From the sequence record KC710998: a stretch of 51,821 nt of DNA; one strand, written 5' to 3'. A program made the position numbers and the translations under genes. The stretch's first letter is position 1, and the number at the start of each line of letters is the position of its first letter. The notes below the pieces were generated by a model. That model was not told the origin of the DNA, did not search any database, and saw only the letters and a program-made list of their open reading frames with translations. Source of the DNA: Shigella phage pSf-1. This document shows, one piece after another, positions 32,810-39,702 of the stretch.

Positions 32810-33226
32810 ATGGTTGATGAATTTTTCACTGACGCAGAAATCACGCAGCAAATCGTGAAATTAGCGCCACCGATGAAACAGATTGATCCAGATTTAATGG
32901 TGGCATGGATTGATCTGGCAAAGGAATTTGTTTGCAAGAAGCGGTTTAAAGAATCATATCCTAAAGCGGTTGCTCTTTATACGTTGCACCTTATGACGCT
33001 TGACGGAGCTATGAAGCAAGAGGGGGAAAGCGTAGAGAGTTACTCACGGCGCGTGGCGTCATTTTCCCTGACTGGTGAATTTAGCCAGACATTTGATCGC
33101 GTGTCCGGCGATTCAAGCGGAAAAGAGATTAGACAAACTCCGTGGGGCAAAATGTATGAGACGTTAAATAGAAAAAAAGGCGGTGGATTTGGCCTTGTGA
33201 CTGGATTTCGGAGGCGCTGCAAATGA
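32810..33226 (+). CDS. putative head-tail connector/adaptor protein
   Basis: position and size; GGAGGAAA RBS. Confidence 0.35.
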
Positions 33227-33594
33227 ACTATAACGAGATCGCAAGAATGGCAACCGAAGGAATTAACTTCTTTAGTGATGGCAACGGTGAGTTTAAGTGC
33301 ATAACGCAGCGCGGAAGCGTTGAAATCATCGGAGGCGAAGAAGTAGAAAAGCCAGAGATTAGTGTAATGATTAAGGGTTTAATTAGATCCCCAAAAGTCC
33401 GAGAGGTTGACGGCGAGACAATACGAGTAACCGATAAGTTGGGAGTTTTTAACAATAAAGTTGAAATTAAGAACGGGTATCATATTGATGTTGATGGTGA
33501 ATTATATGTTGTAGTTGAAGCAAGACCAATCAGACAAACCAATGTCACAGTTGCTTATCGGCCTATTTTGAGAAGGATTTCCGTGCATGGCTAA
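33223..33594 (+). CDS. putative head-tail joining protein
   Basis: position; overlapping start/stop coupling. Confidence 0.3.
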
Positions 33595-34030
33595 AAACTA
33601 CACGATAAGGGAATTTCACGGCAACATTGATGCGTGGATAAACGCCGTTGATAGTGGACTAAAAGATTGCGTGGAGTTGTTCGCCGAAAAAGTACACACA
33701 GATTTGGTTAAGCGTTCTCCGGTAGATACTGGTCGTTACCGTGGAAACTGGCAGGTAACAGCAAATAAGCCGCCATTGTATGCGCTTAACCAGTACGATA
33801 AGCACGGCGACAAAACGATCGCGGAAGGCAAGCGCGCCATATACGCGATTTTACGAGGTGGCGGAGCAGTAAGAGCCATTTATTTTTCCAACATGCTTAT
33901 TTATGCCAACGCGCTTGAGTACGGTCATTCAAAACAAGCGCCAGCGGGTGTTCTTGGGATTGTAGCGGTTAAGTTGAGATCTTATATGGCTGAAGCAATA
34001 AAAGAGTCGAGGGCTAAAAATGCACTATGA
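33587..34030 (+). CDS. HK97 gp10-like tail completion protein
   Basis: TGRYRGNW and SNMLIYANALEYGHSKQAPAG pattern. Confidence 0.5.
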   Translation: MAKNYTIREFHGNIDAWINAVDSGLKDCVELFAEKVHTDLVKRSPVDTGRYRGNWQVTANKPPLYALNQYDKHGDKTIAEGKRAIYAILRGGGAVRAIYFSNMLIYANALEYGHSKQAPAGVLGIVAVKLRSYMAEAIKESRAKNAL

Positions 34031-34418
34031 ATTAATGCTATCTGCGCGTAAGGCGCTGGCGACTGAATACGAAACCAGATTCATGATCGCTTATGAAAAC
34101 GTAGAGTTTACGCCACCTGGTGACGGTTCGCCGTGGTTGAAGTTTGACTATGCCGAAGTTGACACAGAATACTTGTCATTGGATCGCAAGTGCGTTTCTT
34201 ATATCGGAATGATTCAGGTTGGTATTGTGTTTCCACCAGGTTACGGAACTGACAGGCCGCGCGTTCTCGCTAAAGAGATTGCGCAATTCTTTTACGATGG
34301 TAAAATGCTGGAGCATGGTTATATATATGAGGGTGCAAGAGTTCACAAGCCGCTCAAGAGTGAAAGCGGTTGGATTCTCCCAATAAGGTTTTATGTTCGA
34401 ATTGAAACAAAGGAGTAA
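34020..34418 (+). CDS. putative tail terminator protein
   Basis: position immediately upstream of major tail gene. Confidence 0.35.
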   Translation: MHYELMLSARKALATEYETRFMIAYENVEFTPPGDGSPWLKFDYAEVDTEYLSLDRKCVSYIGMIQVGIVFPPGYGTDRPRVLAKEIAQFFYDGKMLEHGYIYEGARVHKPLKSESGWILPIRFYVRIETKE

Positions 34419-34423
34419 AAATT

Positions 34424-35086
34424 ATGCATTTACCAAATGGATCGCAAATTTTCGTTGAGAGCAATCGCGGAAGCGCTATTGATGCAACGGCAGTATCAAA
34501 CGCTAAAGATCCTGTATTCACCGTTGCATCTGGCGGAACTGCGTACAAGAAAGGTGATTATGTTATCATCACTGCGTCTTCTTGGGGTAAGCTGATTGAT
34601 CGTGTTATGCGTGTAAAGACTGACGGTGAAGAAACAAGCGTGACTCTTGAAGGCGTAGATACTACTGATCAGAACGTTTTCCCGTCTGGCGGTACTGCAT
34701 CTTTTGCCAAAATTGATGCATGGACTGAGATCCCTTGCGTTCAGGATTTGTCGCAGGACGGCGGCGAACAGCAATACTACACTTATCAGTGTTTGTCAGA
34801 CGATCAGGAACAGCAGTTACCTACCTATAAGAGCGCCGTTTCTCTTACCTACACTTTTGCGCACGAATACGATAACGCGATCTATCCGCTATTGCGTTCA
34901 GCAGATGAATCGGGCGAAGTAACCGCGCTTCGTATGTATGTACCAAAAGCAAAAGAGATGCGTTGCTGGGCTGGTGTACTTTCATTTAACGAGATCCCAC
35001 AAACGACCGTTAACGAAATGGAAACCGTTTCCCTGTCTGTATCCCTGAAAGGTCGATTCACCTTCCTACCTTCTCAAGTAGCATAA
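34424..35086 (+). CDS. major tail protein
   Basis: 220 aa; position upstream of G/T chaperone and tape measure; followed by terminator. Confidence 0.5.
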   Translation: MHLPNGSQIFVESNRGSAIDATAVSNAKDPVFTVASGGTAYKKGDYVIITASSWGKLIDRVMRVKTDGEETSVTLEGVDTTDQNVFPSGGTASFAKIDAWTEIPCVQDLSQDGGEQQYYTYQCLSDDQEQQLPTYKSAVSLTYTFAHEYDNAIYPLLRSADESGEVTALRMYVPKAKEMRCWAGVLSFNEIPQTTVNEMETVSLSVSLKGRFTFLPSQVA

Positions 35087-35092
35087 TCACAA

Positions 35093-35114
35093 GGGGCGTT
35101 GCGCCCCTTTTTTT
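35093..35114 (+). terminator. rho-independent terminator
   Basis: GGGGCG-ttg-CGCCCC + T7. Confidence 0.65.
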
Positions 35115-35185: not shown

Positions 35186-35503
35186 ATGTCAAAAATGAAA
35201 TTGACGATTGGGCCGCTTCCTGACTTTAAATTACCAGTGAAATTTGCAATGCCTAACGGAGAAGATCAAACAATTATCTTCACAGTTCGCCACCGCAAAA
35301 CAAGTGAGATTCACGAGCGCTACACGTCAGATACTCCAATGAGCGATGTTGAAATGATCACCTTCCTTGCTTCCGGTTGGAATCTTGATGATGAATTTAA
35401 CGAAGAAAATATTAAACAGCTTCTTGATTACTACCCAGCGACAGCAATCGGATTAACTAGCGCATACATGAAAGCGCTTGCGGGGCAGCGAGTAAAAAAC
35501 TAA
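35186..35503 (+). CDS. tail assembly chaperone G-like
   Basis: 105 aa, AAGGGGAAAG RBS; ends at slippery heptamer. Confidence 0.55.
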   Translation: MSKMKLTIGPLPDFKLPVKFAMPNGEDQTIIFTVRHRKTSEIHERYTSDTPMSDVEMITFLASGWNLDDEFNEENIKQLLDYYPATAIGLTSAYMKALAGQRVKN

Positions 35504-35814
35504 AAAGGGCGGTTTACCTGTTTTATCAGAAACCGCCGACAGATGCAGAGCTTGAGGCCGTTGGCCTTACAAGGGCAGACTATGAAGGAGAAGATCCGCC
35601 AGAGGTTATATTTGATGAAAGCATGATGCAATCATGGGATATATTTTGCGCAATGCAAACGCAATGGAGATGTTCTGGCGGTGGCGCTTACGGGTTTGAT
35701 TATAATGTCTTGCCTATGCTTTTTGAGATTTACAAGGTTGAGGATCGCGAGATGGCGCTAAACGACTTGCGAATCATGGAGCAAAAAGCACTTGAAATGA
35801 TGCATTCAAAATAA
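35186..35814 (+). CDS. tail assembly chaperone GT-like fusion (programmed -1 frameshift product)
   Basis: -1 frame is open from slippery site A_AAA_AAC (35494..35500) through ORF 35623..35814. Confidence 0.5.
35494..35500 (+). promoter_or_regulatory. -1 ribosomal frameshift slippery heptamer A AAA AAC
   Basis: XXXYYYZ heptamer immediately before G stop codon. Confidence 0.5.
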
Positions 35815-35853
35815 GCGCCTACGGGCGCTTTTTTATTACCTGGAGGATTAATA

Positions 35854-38526
35854 ATGTCAGAACAATACGCAGGCTTGACGCTTGGGGTTGACGTTTCTCA
35901 ACTCAACAATGCTGTAAAGTCTTTGCAGCAATTCAAGAAGGCAAACGACGACGCAAAGGGAAGCGTTGAGAGTTTTGTTGATTCAGAGGTTGTTGCAAGA
36001 CAAAGAGCCAAACAACTGGCTGAGGAATTGGCAAAGCAGAAGCAAGAATTTAAAGCAATTCAGTCGGCAATAGATCCGACAGCAAGCAAAATGGATAAGT
36101 TGCGCCAGGCGGCAACACAGCTTGATGCGCTTTGGAAAAAAGGAATTGTGCCGGATGATACATTCTTTGAGTTAGGATCAATTCTTGAGACGCAGCAAAA
36201 CAAACTGATCGCAACTAAAAAGGCGCTAACTGAAGAAGGCCGCGCGGCGCTTGAGGAAGCAAAAAACAAGGCAAGGGCAGAGGCTGAGGCAAGAAAGTTT
36301 ATTGCGGCATTGCAGGCGCAAGCTGACGCAGCGGAAAAAACAAAATCAGAGCTTGTCGAAATGAGAGCCGCACAACTTGGAGTTAGTGCAGAGGCAGCGC
36401 CATTTATTGCAAAAATGAAGGAGCAGGAAAAACAAGCCTCAAAACTTGGCGTTTCTATGGGGCAGTACAAGCAAGCAATGGCGCAATTGCCAATGCAGAT
36501 CACTGACGTTGTTACTTCTCTTGCTTCAGGTATGCCAGTATGGATGATCGCAATCCAGCAGGGTGGGCAAATCAAGGACTCATTCGGCGGTGTTGCTAAT
36601 ACGTTTAAAGCGCTAATGACATTTGTCACGCCTTTAAGTGTAGGAATGACGGCGCTGACTGGTGCTCTTGGTTATGCTGCATATAATGCATACAAAGCAA
36701 ATGCACAATTGAAGGAGATCACAAAAACCGTTCAGGAGGCAACAGGTCTTTCCGGTGAGTTTGCAGAGCGGATCGCAACTGGAATCCAAGCGCTATCTGA
36801 CAAGACAGGAGAGAGCGCCGACAATCTGGCAAAGGCATACATAAGCACTAAGGATGGAGCAACCGAGGCCATACAAAAACTCGTCGATGTTGGATTTACC
36901 TATGACGAAGCAAAGGCAAAAGTAAACGAATACAAAAACGCATCAAGTTTTGTAAGTCTTAACAATGAAATTGCTGATCACAAAAACAAGGTTCTTGAGC
37001 TTGGCGATTCATGGTATGCGGTCTTAAAAGCAAAACGTGATTATGCTTCACCGTCCGGCGGGCTGTTGGGGAAAGAGCTTGGTTATGTGAATCCAATGCT
37101 GCAATTTGCGAAGAACACCTATGAGGATATAGGAAAGATTGTAAAAGATGCGAATAAGGATATGGCGGAACGAGCAGCACGCATCGACAGAGAAAACCTT
37201 TCCTTAAACAGAGTTCGAGCGGCGCAAGAGGCTTTAAACAAAGCCATAGAGGATCAGAAGAACGTAGCAAGGACAGCAGACGAAGAGTTGAAAAAGCGCG
37301 CGGCTGAGAACGTGGAGTTCAGGCGAAAAGAGCTTGAAGAGGCGAAGAAGGCGCAGCAGCAAAAGGAAAAAGTTGGTGGAGTTGTAAAAGCACCAACAGA
37401 GCAGCTTGATAAGGAGCTATATGTTCTCAAGGCGCAACTTGAAACGCTGAAAGAGCACCGAACTGTAAATGATGTTATTTCACGCCAGAGGCAATCTTTG
37501 TGGAGCATTGAAAAGCAGATCCAGATCCTGGAGGAAGCGCAAAGCAAACGCAAGCTGACAAAGGCTGAACAGGCGTTACTAAACGAGCAAAAAGCAGTTA
37601 TTGCTATGGCAAAAGAAAAGGCCGAGATAGGCGATCAGATTGTTTTGCAACAAAGAAAGAACAAGCAATACCAGGAAGGGCTTAAATTCATTCAGCAAAC
37701 ATCAGATGCTATTGACGCTATGAACTTGCGACAGTCTGGAGCTACAGATCTGCAAATCCAGCGAGAGCTTGAGTTGAAGAAGTTGCGAACTGATTATGTT
37801 GCTGGCGGCGGTAGTATCGACGATGAAATTTATCAGCAGATGGAAGCAAAGCTGAAAGAGTATTACGCAACTGAGGATCAACTTAGAAATAACTGGATTG
37901 CAGGAGCAAAAAACGCATGGGAGGTTTACGGACAAGATGCAATGGATATGTACGGAAACGTGCAAGATATTGCAAGCGAGGCGCTCAACGGTCTAACCAA
38001 CCAAATGGCTACATTCCTTGCAACAGGCAAGGCAAACTTTAAGAGCTTCGCAACGTCAATCATCCAAATGATTATCCAGATGATCACGAAGATGGTTATC
38101 TTTAATGCCATATCTGGTGCGATTGGAGGTGACACTTGGACGATTGGAAGCCTTCTTAAAAATGTTGGATTTGCAACTGGTGGATACACTGGCGACGGCG
38201 GGAAGTATGAGCCAGCAGGTGTTGTTCATAAAGGCGAGTTTGTCATGACGAAGGAGGCCACGAAGCGGATCGGAGTTGGAAACCTTTACAAAATGATGCG
38301 CGGTTATGCAAATGGCGGCGTTGTTGGCGGCACTTCATACACTGGCGGCGGCGTTTCATCAGGAGCAACAAACCTTAATATTGGTGGGATTAGCGTTGAT
38401 ATTAACAACGGAAACGATCCGAAGGGGTTAGAGACTGGCGTAAAAATGATTTTCACTGATATGATTAAGCGTTCCTGTACGCAGGGTGGGGAAGTTTACG
38501 AATTTGTTATGTCTAAGCGGGGGTGA
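35854..38526 (+). CDS. tape measure protein
   Basis: 890 aa, Ala/Lys/Glu-rich predicted coiled coil, Gly-rich C-terminal region, position after G/T. Confidence 0.75.
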
Positions 38527-38879
38527 TAGTGAAACTTGAGCAATTCAAATGGTGCACGCAAACGCAAGGAGGCGGCGGCACTATGACCACATCAAATAAC
38601 GACAGGGAAATCTCATTTGGTAATGGTTACACGCAGGTTGCTTCAGGAGGGTTTAACACGGTACGCAGGGAGTTTTCCATTGTCTATGTTGGCAATGATT
38701 ACAGAGACGTTGTTGACTTCCTGAATGGACACAGGCTGAAGCCGTTTTTATGGTTTATGCCTGACGGTCAACCTGGTCTATTCAGGGTAAAATCTGGTAG
38801 CGTTGGATTAACTCCAATATCAGCAACCGTTCAGGAAGTGAAAGCAACATTTACTGAGCAATTTACATCAATGCAATAA
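38523..38879 (+). CDS. minor tail protein (lambda M-like)
   Basis: 118 aa directly after tape measure. Confidence 0.5.
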
Positions 38880-38907: not shown

Positions 38908-38940
38908 TTGATGATACAATGCACGAAAGGAGGTGCAATT

Positions 38941-39702
38941 ATGGCTAATGAAACAACAGGTCGCGCGGATCTTGAAAATTGTCTGCAAAGCCTTTACCCT
39001 GGCGAGATTATCACGCTAATTGAGATTGACGGCACAAAGTTTGGCGCAAACATTTACCGCATACACAATGAGAACATCTCATACACTGCGGAAGAATTAT
39101 TGCAGGCGCGAGAAACTGGAGTTCTTCCGCCGAAAGAGATTACATTCCGTGGCGAGGTTTACGGCGCGCGCCCGTTTGGAATATCTGGAATCAACTTCAC
39201 AAGCAACGGAAAGGCTGATAAGCCACAATTGATACTATCAAACCTTGATAGCCAGGTGAGCGCGATGATTCGCAACTTTAACGGCATGATGCAAGCTAAG
39301 GTTACAATCTGGATCACGCCAGCGGAATTAATGGGGAAAGATGGCAGCATTAAAGATGGAGCCTCAAGAAAGCTGGTTTACTACATTGAGCGCCCAAGCC
39401 ATTACAATAGAATGATGGCGAAATTTGACCTGACATCGCCTTATGATATGGATGGAATAATGATTCCTCCGCGAATAACTCAAAGCGTTTGTTATTGGGC
39501 GCAGCGTGGATGGTATCGAAGCGGAAAAGGTTGCGGATACAATGGATCGCGAATGTTTGACAAAGACAACAATCCTGTAACAGATCCATCTCAAGACTTT
39601 TGCGCAGGAACTGTAACAGCGTGCAAACTTCGTTTTGGTGCAGATCAGCAGCTTGATTTTGGCGGTGCACCAGTAGCAAGCCTGTTAAGGAGAAATCAGT
39701 GA
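38941..39702 (+). CDS. minor tail protein (lambda L-like)
   Basis: start ATG 38941 with AGGAGGTG RBS (track ORF from 38908); position. Confidence 0.55.
   Translation: MANETTGRADLENCLQSLYPGEIITLIEIDGTKFGANIYRIHNENISYTAEELLQARETGVLPPKEITFRGEVYGARPFGISGINFTSNGKADKPQLILSNLDSQVSAMIRNFNGMMQAKVTIWITPAELMGKDGSIKDGASRKLVYYIERPSHYNRMMAKFDLTSPYDMDGIMIPPRITQSVCYWAQRGWYRSGKGCGYNGSRMFDKDNNPVTDPSQDFCAGTVTACKLRFGADQQLDFGGAPVASLLRRNQ

What the first reader, a model, noticed from the sequence alone, without database searches (positions are those of the whole stretch)
35186..35814. Programmed -1 frameshift joining tail chaperones G and T
The G-like ORF ends in ...CAG CGA GTA AAA AAC TAA. The heptamer A AAA AAC (35494-35500) is a canonical slippery site, and the -1 frame is open from there into ORF 35623..35814, giving a GT-like fusion. 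This matches the conserved G/GT arrangement upstream of tape measure genes in long-tailed phages.
Basis: partly seen in the sequence, partly recalled or inferred. Interest (0 to 1): 0.45.

Follow-up and report, generated by a model that had tools for sequence, protein, structure and literature searches.

The report
Tail chaperone G/GT programmed -1 frameshift
This T1-like coliphage has the usual tail-assembly chaperone gene pair, in which a few ribosomes slip back one base at A_AAA_AAC just before the stop codon to make a longer fusion protein; the call is correct, but the feature is ordinary and already annotated in sister phages.

Summary

**The site.** The window is a Drexlerviridae (Hanrivervirus) phage. 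ORF 35186..35503 is a Phage_TAC_4 tail assembly chaperone. It ends GTA AAA AAC TAA, so the heptamer A_AAA_AAC (35494-35500) abuts the stop codon. The -1 frame is open from 35461 to 35814 and has no start codon before 35623. It encodes a DUF1799 domain whose homology begins at the slip site. The predicted products are G (105 aa) and GT (209 aa). The pair lies between the major tail protein gene and the tape measure gene.

**Comparative evidence.**
- Of 104 distinct related junctions, 89 carry a canonical heptamer (AAAAAAC, GGGAAAC or TTTAAAC) directly against the stop.
- Synonymous positions inside the heptamer never vary.
- The codon periodicity of substitutions switches from frame 0 to frame -1 at the junction.

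**Downstream hairpin.** A hairpin (35508-35537, 7-nt spacer) is the most stable segment of the gene pair and is favoured by synonymous codon choice. Several lineages have lost it, and covariation does not support it.

**Novelty.** The orthologous frameshift is already annotated in phages TLS, LL5 and Sushi. Records of this genus list two separate ORFs instead. No experiment exists for this family. Already known; low interest.

The parts
34424..35086 (+). Major tail (tube) protein gene; upstream context of the G/GT pair
   Evidence: Pfam Phage_tail_3 E 3e-64; annotated as major tail protein in vojen and Henu8
35091..35109 (+). Intrinsic-terminator-like hairpin plus T run, between the major tail gene and G
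   Evidence: 8-bp stem with 6 GC pairs, followed by TTTTTGTT; a terminator is annotated at the same place in T1 and Sushi
35186..35503 (+). G: tail assembly (tape measure) chaperone, 105 aa, 12.0 kDa; the product of standard translation
   Evidence: ORF; Phage_TAC_4 104 bits against a cut-off of 21; SD-like AAGGGG 5 nt from the ATG; the exact protein occurs on 287 contigs, named tape measure chaperone or TfmS
35494..35500 (+). Slippery heptamer A_AAA_AAC (X_XXY_YYZ in the G frame)
   Evidence: It is invariant in 52 alignable relatives, including its three synonymous positions (0 bits, against 1.3-1.9 bits at the five preceding third positions). A canonical heptamer abuts the stop in 89 of 104 distinct junctions.
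35501..35503 (+). 0-frame stop TAA directly after the heptamer. Its T and first A, together with the preceding C (35500), form the invariant -1 frame Leu codon CTA.
   Evidence: The position of the stop is conserved while its identity varies among TAA, TGA and TAG. Leu106 is invariant in alignment A1.
35508..35537 (+). Candidate stimulatory hairpin (GGCGGUUU / AAACCGCC plus a 3-bp inner stem), 7 nt after the heptamer
   Evidence: MFE fold -15.7 kcal/mol. It is the most stable 45-nt window of the G-T pair (-15.1, against -5.5 +/- 2.8). Only 0.13% of synonymous-codon resamples are as stable. It is not conserved in all lineages.
35500..35814 (+). T segment: the -1 frame extension (104 codons plus stop), encoding a DUF1799 domain. 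It is translated only as the C-terminal half of GT (209 aa, 24.1 kDa).
   Evidence: Translation; DUF1799 49 bits against a cut-off of 26; homology from T residue 1; periodicity in the -1 frame; masses
35813..35830 (+). Intrinsic-terminator-like hairpin plus T run, between T and the tape measure gene
   Evidence: a terminator is annotated at the same place in T1 and Sushi
35854..38526 (+). Tape measure protein gene; downstream context and the presumed client of G/GT
   Evidence: TMP_2 E 8e-35 and Tape_meas_lam_C E 6.5e-22; GGAGG 6 nt from the ATG

Best explanation
This is the G/GT-type programmed -1 ribosomal frameshift of a long-tailed phage.

**Mechanism.** Most ribosomes translating 35186..35503 terminate at TAA and release the 105-aa chaperone G. 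A small fraction slip back one base. This happens when tRNA-Lys and tRNA-Asn occupy AAA AAC (35495-35500) and re-pair with AAA AAA (35494-35499). Those ribosomes then read CTA AAA AGG ... and produce the 209-aa fusion GT, with predicted junction ...GQRVKN-LKRAVY....

**Function, by analogy.** In lambda, the shared G part binds the tape measure protein. The T part (here a DUF1799 domain) recruits the major tail protein. A large excess of G over GT is needed for correct tail assembly.

**Possible modulators.** The stop codon right after the heptamer, and in this lineage the hairpin 7 nt downstream, plausibly slow the ribosome on the slippery site.

**What is shown and what is inferred.**
- Shown here: the anatomy, the homology of both halves, conservation of the signal, and the frame switch in the substitution pattern.
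- Inferred: that slippage is ribosomal and tandem, its efficiency (probably a few percent), the roles of the stop and the hairpin, and the binding partners.
For: **1. Context and families.** The order is major tail protein, G (Phage_TAC_4), T (DUF1799), tape measure protein.

**2. The region 35500-35622 is coding in the -1 frame but cannot be initiated.**
- No start codon lies in that frame before 35623.
- No Shine-Dalgarno sequence sits at functional spacing from 35623.
- Even so, DUF1799, tblastn and PHROG 17368 homology run through this region.
- Across 52 alignable relatives the most variable codon position is frame-0 position 3 upstream of the site (1.59 bits, against 0.73 and 0.52). Downstream it is -1-frame position 3 (1.13 bits, against 0.33 and 0.43).

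**3. Conservation of the signal.**
- 89 of 104 distinct junctions have X_XXY_YYZ directly against the stop: AAAAAAC 72, GGGAAAC 13, TTTAAAC 2, GGGAAAT 1, AAAAAAA 1. They come from Drexlerviridae, Dhillonvirus, Pseudomonas and Ralstonia phages and proteobacterial prophages, down to about 28-30% protein identity.
- The codon before the heptamer changes its amino acid (GTA, GCA, ACA, GAA, CTA; or CTG, CGG, CAG, AAG) but always keeps the required third base.
- In Dhillonvirus EE09 the -1 frame opens only 7 nt before the stop. The shift must therefore occur on the heptamer.

**4.** The protein alignment is ungapped across the junction, with N105 nearly invariant and L106 invariant.

**5.** The same shift is annotated as a joined CDS in TLS (tfmS), LL5 and Sushi. 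It is also mentioned for the T1-like phage Solomon (PMC8407766).

**6. Hairpin support:**

**7.** In E. coli A_AAA_AAC is much less shift-prone than A_AAA_AAG (PMC5009743). That fits the low GT:G ratio lambda needs (about 1:30; same review).
Against: - No experimental detection of GT exists for this phage or, as far as I could find, for any T1-like phage.
- The exact 209-aa fusion is absent from a collection of 15 billion proteins.
- Thirteen of the 104 junctions lack a canonical heptamer, for example Webervirus GCA AAA GTY TAA and others with GCA AAG GTC TAA. Tandem slippage is therefore not the only solution in the family.
- The hairpin is abolished by synonymous changes in some close relatives (L008-L010) and weakened in L014. 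It shows no covariation beyond slid controls, and RNAalifold finds no consensus.
- Dinucleotide shuffles of the 67-nt segment give z of only -1.2.
- No Rfam frameshift element matches.
Confidence: 0.9

Rival explanations
1. The frame change is the same, but the mechanism is single-tRNA P-site slippage at a 'shifty stop'. After normal decoding of AAC, tRNA-Asn sits in the P site with TAA in the A site. Slow termination lets it slip from AAC to AAA, and CTA is read next. The product (..VKN-LKR..) is identical to that of tandem slippage.
For: The stop codon directly abuts the heptamer in 89 of 104 distinct junctions, and its identity varies (TAA, TGA, TAG) while its position does not. Stop codons 3' of slippery runs are known to promote shifting ('shifty stops', Weiss et al. 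1987; from my own knowledge, not checked here).
Against: - Full X_XXY_YYZ conservation, including the first X and the XXY codon (G_GGA_AAC, T_TTA_AAC), is what two-tRNA slippage requires. A P-site-only shift of tRNA-Asn does not explain it.
- Two prophage loci keep AAAAAAC with one sense codon before the stop (L156, L161).
- The position of the stop may instead be a by-product of the invariant -1 frame Leu codon CT(A/G), which overlaps it.
Confidence: 0.2
2. T is an independent small gene (63 aa, 35623..35814) with its own initiation, as annotated in Henu8, JLBYU09 and T1. There is no fusion.
For: Many GenBank records annotate it this way. The 63-aa protein is in public collections. The 63-aa ORF alone still matches DUF1799 (E 2e-12, profile positions 20-80 of 80).
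Against: - The 41 codons upstream of the ATG are conserved at protein level and evolve with -1 frame periodicity.
- The DUF1799 and PHROG profiles extend upstream of the ATG.
- The Met is not conserved in distant relatives (DEQTAQSW, WPENLPAV).
- Annotated T starts differ from record to record.
- The only SD-like element is 15 nt away.
- This reading does not explain the invariant synonymous sites in the heptamer.
Confidence: 0.04
3. The fusion arises by transcriptional slippage. RNA polymerase adds one extra A in the A6 run (35494-35499), giving an mRNA in which G and T are in frame (junction ..VKK-LKR..).
For: The site is a homopolymeric A run. Database records of relatives differ in run length (A5 in Shigella phage 2019SD1 and Citrobacter phage HCF1; A8 against A7 in Photorhabdus prophages), which shows the run is error-prone at some level.
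Against: - Homologous junctions use G_GGA_AAC and T_TTA_AAC, which have no run longer than 3 but fit tandem tRNA re-pairing exactly.
- Z = C is conserved (87 of 89), which polymerase slippage does not need.
- A6 is shorter than the runs of roughly 8-9 usually needed for productive slippage by bacterial RNA polymerase (general knowledge).
- The run-length variants sit in an 'UNVERIFIED_ASMBLY' record or in a locus with a broken G gene, so they look like sequencing errors or decay.
Confidence: 0.04

Closest known systems
tfmA/tfmS of phage TLS (AY308796), gp45/gp44 of phage LL5 (NC_047985), CPT_Sushi14/15 of Klebsiella phage Sushi (KT001920): annotated tape measure chaperone frameshift products in Drexlerviridae
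   Same: These are orthologous genes in the same position. TLS and LL5 have the identical junction GTA AAA AAC TAA and a T part 87.5% identical to the window's. Their records carry a joined CDS for the fusion.
   Different: - Hanrivervirus records, including the closest relatives vojen, Henu8 and JLBYU09, annotate G alone or G plus a 63-aa ORF.
- Sushi (Webervirus) lacks the canonical heptamer (GCA AAA GTT TAA).
- All these annotations are computational.
Bacteriophage lambda G/GT (Levin, Hendrix & Casjens 1993; Xu, Hendrix & Duda 2004, 2013, 2014, as summarised in PMC5009743)
   Same: Two overlapping ORFs lie between the major tail gene and the tape measure gene. A -1 shift occurs on an X_XXA_AAZ heptamer at the very end of G. 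The long product is made at low level. This is the presumed functional model: G binds the tape measure protein, and T binds the tail tube protein.
   Different: - Lambda uses G_GGA_AAG.
- From my recollection of Levin et al. 1993 (not checked here), lambda needs no stimulatory structure.
- The proteins here belong to other sequence families (Phage_TAC_4 and DUF1799); no match to any other T-domain family appeared even at E up to 10.
- Here Z is C, the stop abuts the heptamer, and a hairpin follows it.
Acinetobacter phage vB_AbaS_Loki gp12/gp13 (PMC5313236)
   Same: [quoted passage not shown]
   Different: The phage group and host are different. The prediction there is also purely computational. 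I did not compare the protein sequences.
E. coli dnaX -1 frameshift (A_AAA_AAG, upstream SD, downstream hairpin)
   Same: It is a -1 shift on an A-rich heptamer read by tRNA-Lys, with a downstream hairpin at a short spacer.
   Different: - dnaX uses Z = G, which is far more shift-prone in E. coli than Z = C (PMC5009743), and reaches high efficiency.
- No conserved upstream SD-like element exists here. The GGG at 35483-35485 is a freely varying Gly codon in relatives.

Membership tests
Conserved G/GT-type tail assembly chaperone frameshift of long-tailed phages (Xu, Hendrix & Duda 2004) | Two ORFs located between the major tail protein gene and the tape measure protein gene | tested here: met
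   34424..35086 is Phage_tail_3. 35186..35503 and the -1 frame through 35814 follow it. 35854..38526 is TMP_2 + Tape_meas_lam_C.
Conserved G/GT-type tail assembly chaperone frameshift of long-tailed phages (Xu, Hendrix & Duda 2004) | The downstream ORF overlaps the end of the upstream ORF in another frame and lacks its own conserved start and ribosome binding site | tested here: met
   The -1 frame is open from 35461. The first start codon is at 35623. The SD-like element is 15 nt away. The Met is not conserved.
Conserved G/GT-type tail assembly chaperone frameshift of long-tailed phages (Xu, Hendrix & Duda 2004) | [quoted passage not shown] | tested here: met
   A_AAA_AAC at 35494-35500. A canonical heptamer abuts the stop in 89 of 104 distinct junctions. 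Synonymous sites in the heptamer are invariant.
Conserved G/GT-type tail assembly chaperone frameshift of long-tailed phages (Xu, Hendrix & Duda 2004) | The fusion protein is made at a low, fixed ratio to the short protein and is required for tail assembly; neither protein is in the virion | not testable with these tools
   This needs protein detection and genetics. I found no such data for T1-like phages in the library.
Pfam Phage_TAC_4 (PF08748), tail assembly chaperone | Score above the curated gathering threshold over the full profile | tested here: met
   104.2 bits against 21.1; residues 1-104 on profile positions 1-123 of 124
Pfam DUF1799 (PF08809) | Score above the curated gathering threshold | tested here: met
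   49.1 bits against 26; T residues 22-101 on profile positions 2-80 of 80. The match starts 20 codons upstream of ATG 35623.
Lambda gpG / gpT sequence families | Detectable sequence similarity to the lambda-type G and T Pfam families | tested here: not met
   Only Phage_TAC_4 and DUF1799 were reported. For the T part nothing else meaningful appeared even at E up to 10. It works like lambda G/GT but is not a detectable sequence member. Fold-level relatedness was not tested.
dnaX-type three-element -1 frameshift signal | A_AAA_AAG heptamer, plus an upstream internal Shine-Dalgarno sequence, plus a downstream hairpin | tested here: not met
   Z is C, not G. There is no conserved upstream SD (third-position entropy 1.9 bits at the GGG codon). 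A hairpin is present in this lineage only.

The most novel reading that the evidence does not exclude
Across the whole Phage_TAC_4/DUF1799 chaperone family, the signal may be a distinct compact class: X_XXA_AAC fused to the 0-frame stop codon, which overlaps an invariant -1 frame Leu codon. Competition between release factor and slippage, tuned by an optional hairpin and by the deliberately weak Z = C, would then set the G:GT ratio. On this reading the stop codon is a mechanistic part of the frameshift signal and not merely the end of G.
Probability: 0.25. Interest if true: 0.35.

Novelty: already known. Interest (0 to 1): 0.15.

Why it matters
The value is mainly for annotation. Records of this genus (Hanrivervirus), and of T1 itself, list G plus a small 'hypothetical' ORF, or mislabel both as 'tail length tape measure protein'. 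The real second product is almost certainly a 209-aa GT fusion.

The family-wide survey adds a modest point. The heptamer is nearly always X_XXA_AAC placed directly against the stop codon, even at about 30% protein identity. That gives a clean natural series for studying how a weak bacterial slippery site, a stop codon and an optional hairpin set a low frameshift ratio. It also gives a simple rule for automated annotation of this chaperone family.

Tried and rejected
- **Covariation test of the hairpin on 41 Drexlerviridae sequences.** 80% of cells pair and 12 cells show double changes, but slid controls give 11. RNAalifold finds no consensus structure. The hairpin is therefore not proven by covariation and is not family-wide.
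- **Rfam scan of 35300-35900 at E up to 10.** Only chance-level hits appeared and no frameshift element.
- **PDB sequence search with the fusion.** Nothing relevant.
- **Upstream SD-like stimulator (GGGG at 35482-35485).** Rejected, because that Gly codon varies freely in relatives.
- **A second shift site in the 14-codon overlap (G_GGG at 35482-35485).** Rejected for the same reason, and because EE09 restricts the shift to the heptamer.
- **Phage-encoded tRNAs that might influence slippage.** None in the window.
- **Exact look-up of the fusion protein, in both KN-L and KK-L versions.** Neither is in the public collection.
- **Structure prediction and the large homology searches.** Not run, because the Pfam and PHROG matches and 160 related loci already settled the question.

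Full report
**What the window is.** The region around the finding is 98.6% identical to Escherichia phage vojen and 96-98% identical to many other Hanrivervirus phages (Drexlerviridae, Tempevirinae; T1-like virulent coliphages). The local gene order is:
- tail terminator (34020..34418, Phage_tail_terminator_5)
- major tail protein (34424..35086, Phage_tail_3)
- the two ORFs of the finding
- tape measure protein (35854..38526, TMP_2 + Tape_meas_lam_C)
- a lambda-M-like minor tail protein (38523..38879)

**Checking the observation.**
- ORF 35186..35503 encodes 105 aa and ends CAG CGA GTA AAA AAC TAA.
- In that frame the heptamer 35494-35500 reads A_AAA_AAC, a canonical X_XXY_YYZ site. The stop TAA (35501-35503) follows with no intervening codon.
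- The -1 frame has a TAG at 35458-35460. It is then open to the TAA at 35812-35814.
- The first ATG, GTG or TTG in that frame is at 35623.

A heptamer by itself is weak evidence. I count 48 in-frame X_XXY_YYZ heptamers in about 15,300 codons of the window, nine of them AAAAAAC. Only two of the 48 lead to a -1 extension longer than 100 codons. At the 9.1% stop frequency observed in -1 frames, 104 open codons has a probability of about 5e-5.

**What the two halves are.**
- G matches Pfam Phage_TAC_4 end to end (104 bits against a threshold of 21).
- The -1 frame part matches DUF1799 (49 bits against 26). That match begins at T residue 22, which is 20 codons upstream of the ATG at 35623.
- In PHROGs, family 17368 is a single 213-position profile. 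G aligns to positions 1-107 and the -1 part to 109-211, so the family was built from fused proteins joined exactly at this point.
- No solved structure is detectably related by sequence.

**The -1 stretch between the stop and ATG 35623 is translated.**
- tblastn with the T part matches relatives from T residue 1, immediately after the slip site, and always in the -1 frame relative to G.
- In 52 relatives that align without gaps, the most variable codon position upstream of the heptamer is position 3 of frame 0 (mean entropy 1.59 bits, against 0.73 and 0.52). In the 120 nt after the stop it is position 3 of the -1 frame (1.13 bits, against 0.33 and 0.43).
- This stretch cannot be reached by initiation. 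It contains no start codon.
- The only SD-like element before ATG 35623 is a GAGG 15 nt away. The neighbouring genes have strong SD sequences 5-8 nt from their starts.
- The Met at 35623 is not conserved in more distant homologues. Database annotators place the start of the 'T ORF' at different positions in different phages.

**Conservation of the signal.** I collected 162 loci from annotated phage records, IMG/VR contigs and bacterial genomes (prophages). They give 104 distinct junctions with G and T in a -1 relationship. Their slip sites fall into these classes:

| Site class | Distinct junctions |
|---|---|
| AAAAAAC directly abutting the 0-frame stop | 72 |
| GGGAAAC directly abutting the stop | 13 |
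| TTTAAAC directly abutting the stop | 2 |
| GGGAAAT directly abutting the stop | 1 |
| AAAAAAA directly abutting the stop | 1 |
| AAAAAAC one codon before the stop | 2 |
| No canonical heptamer | 13 |

- So 89 of 104 have a canonical heptamer directly against the stop.
- Twelve of the 13 without one have an A_AAA or A_AAG tetramer one codon before the last sense codon. Examples are Webervirus GCA AAA GTY TAA and another group with GCA AAG GTC TAA. The thirteenth, L126, reads GGG AAA ATC TAG.
- The amino acid before Lys-Asn changes (Val, Ala, Thr, Glu, Leu), but its codon always ends in A. Before GGA AAC it always ends in G.
- Within Drexlerviridae the three synonymous positions inside the heptamer have zero entropy. 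The five preceding third positions have 1.3-1.9 bits.
- In Dhillonvirus EE09 the -1 frame opens only 7 nt before the stop, which pins the shift to the heptamer itself.
- The protein alignment of 11 diverse fusions is ungapped through the junction, with Asn105 nearly invariant and Leu106 invariant.
- The variants G_GGA_AAC and T_TTA_AAC argue for tandem tRNA re-pairing on the ribosome and against polymerase stuttering on an A run.

**Seven loci did not fit.** They represent five contigs.
- One is Shigella phage 2019SD1, which has an A5 run. It is flagged UNVERIFIED_ASMBLY, and its G is annotated as a 122-aa read-through.
- One is Citrobacter phage HCF1, also with an A5 run and with a further frame break upstream.
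- Two more contigs (L027/L078 and L099) have frame breaks inside G or T.
- One is a Photorhabdus australis prophage with an A8 run that fuses G and T in frame, but its G N-terminus is interrupted by stops.

I read these as homopolymer sequencing errors or decaying prophages.

**Downstream structure.** Seven nucleotides after the heptamer lies a hairpin, 35508-35537. It has an 8-bp stem GGCGGUUU / AAACCGCC plus three inner pairs, with MFE -15.7 kcal/mol for the 67-nt segment.

Evidence for the hairpin:
- The 45-nt window starting 4 nt after the stop codon's first base is the most stable 45-nt window in the whole G-T pair (-15.1, against a mean of -5.5 and SD 2.8).
- When the 16 codons are resampled with synonymous codons drawn from this phage's structural-gene usage, only 0.13% of sequences fold as stably.
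- Across the 104 distinct loci, the corresponding window falls in the lowest decile of its own gene pair in 52% of cases (median percentile 0.075). This includes very different sequences, such as GGUGGGGGCAC / GUGCCCCCACC in Stenotrophomonas prophages.

Evidence against it:
- Close relatives L008-L010 destroy the stem by synonymous changes, and L014 weakens it. Several other lineages also have no structure.
- Double changes in the proposed pairs are no more frequent than in slid controls.
- RNAalifold finds no consensus.
- A dinucleotide shuffle gives z of only -1.2.
- Rfam has no match.

My reading is that a hairpin is a frequent, lineage-specific modulator and is probably functional in this phage. 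It is not an obligatory part of the signal. From my own recollection (Levin et al. 1993, not checked here), lambda needs no such structure.

**Mechanism.** The best-supported explanation is a -1 programmed ribosomal frameshift.
- tRNA-Lys on AAA (35495-35497) and tRNA-Asn on AAC (35498-35500) re-pair with AAA AAA (35494-35499). Decoding then continues with CTA (35500-35502).
- The products are G (105 aa, 12.0 kDa) and GT (209 aa, 24.1 kDa), with junction ..VKN-LKR...
- In E. coli A_AAA_AAC is much less shift-prone than A_AAA_AAG (review PMC5009743). The near-universal Z = C in this family is therefore consistent with selection for a low ratio. In lambda, G:GT is about 30:1 and that ratio is critical (same review).
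- The stop codon directly after the site may add a pause ('shifty stop'). Alternatively, its position may simply follow from the invariant -1 frame Leu codon that overlaps it. I cannot separate these two readings by computation.
- The functional roles are inferred from lambda (PMC5009743) and were not tested here: G binding the tape measure protein, the T domain recruiting the tail tube protein, and both being absent from virions.

**Comparison with what is known.**
- The same frameshift is already annotated as a joined CDS in phage TLS (tfmS, note 'non-experimental evidence'), phage LL5 ('tapemeasure chaperone protein frameshift product') and Klebsiella phage Sushi.
- It is mentioned for the T1-like phage Solomon (PMC8407766).
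- T1 itself, and the Hanrivervirus records closest to the window, annotate separate ORFs.
- The exact 209-aa fusion is absent from the large protein collection. The 105-aa G and the 63-aa ORF are present.
- The proteins belong to Phage_TAC_4 and DUF1799, not to the lambda G and T families. The system therefore works like lambda G/GT without being a detectable sequence member of it.

**Verdict.** The feature is an ordinary, already recognised one, and its interest is low. The useful by-products are three:
- a corrected annotation for this genus
- the family-wide rule 'X_XXA_AAC directly against the stop'
- a testable question about whether the stop and the hairpin tune the ratio

Noticed in passing
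window 35091-35109 and 35813-35830 (+ strand): The G-T pair is bracketed by two intrinsic-terminator-like hairpins with T runs. One follows the major tail gene and the other sits just before the tape measure gene. T1 and Sushi annotate terminators at the same places. They probably step transcription down, so that the tube protein is made in excess over the chaperones, and the chaperones in excess over the tape measure protein. This would be a second layer of stoichiometry control beside the frameshift.
   Followed up: partly
window 33172-33178 (+ strand): A second in-frame heptamer, A_AAA_AAA, lies 15 codons before the stop of ORF 32810..33226. Its -1 frame stays open into the next gene (33223..33594), which would give a 138-codon extension. 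The two genes overlap by ATGA, and 15 open codons are not unlikely by chance (about 0.24). Conservation in relatives was not checked.
   Followed up: no
L007/L045 (Shigella phage 2019SD1) 1808-1815; L040 (Citrobacter phage HCF1): Two database relatives have A5 instead of A6 in the slippery run. That puts T in the +1 frame and extends G to 122 aa in 2019SD1. That record is flagged UNVERIFIED_ASMBLY, so these are probably homopolymer sequencing errors.
   Followed up: partly
L122 (Photorhabdus australis DSM 17609 prophage) about 836-850: Here the run is A8, against A7 in P. cinerea and P. temperata. G and T are therefore fused in a single frame (..FREKKLIAVARALY..). The N-terminal part of G is interrupted by stop codons. 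It looks like a decaying prophage or an assembly error, not a natural fusion without a frameshift.
   Followed up: partly
L035, L112-L119 (Webervirus); L103-L108, L121; L039; L126: Thirteen distinct junctions of the same chaperone family lack a canonical heptamer. Twelve have only A_AAA or A_AAG one codon before the last sense codon (GCA AAA GTY TAA, GCA AAG GTC TAA, GCA AAG CCC TAA, CAA AAG CAC TAA); the thirteenth, L126, reads GGG AAA ATC TAG. The GCA AAG GTC and GCA AAG CCC groups also lack a downstream hairpin. These lineages presumably use single tRNA-Lys slippage.
   Followed up: partly
phage collection hits H36, H42, H48, H68: About 20 records named 'Campylobacter phage', and one named 'Streptococcus phage MBBL140', carry this E. 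coli T1-like gene pair at 67-77% nucleotide identity. T1-like phages are notorious laboratory contaminants, so the host labels look doubtful.
   Followed up: no
L001 (RefSeq NC_049824, vojen) features; PHROGs 569, 680 and 17368: The annotation is noisy.
- RefSeq and PHROG labels call the chaperone G and the T ORF 'tail length tape measure protein'.
- The 123-aa homologue of window ORF 33223..33594 is labelled 'ribonucleoside-triphosphate reductase', which is implausible for a small protein in the head-tail joining module.
   Followed up: no
window 38908 (+ strand): The mechanically listed TTG start of the lambda-L-like gene (38908..39702) has no SD (best duplex -1.7 kcal/mol). The real start is probably the ATG a few codons downstream (..MANETTG..).
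   Followed up: no
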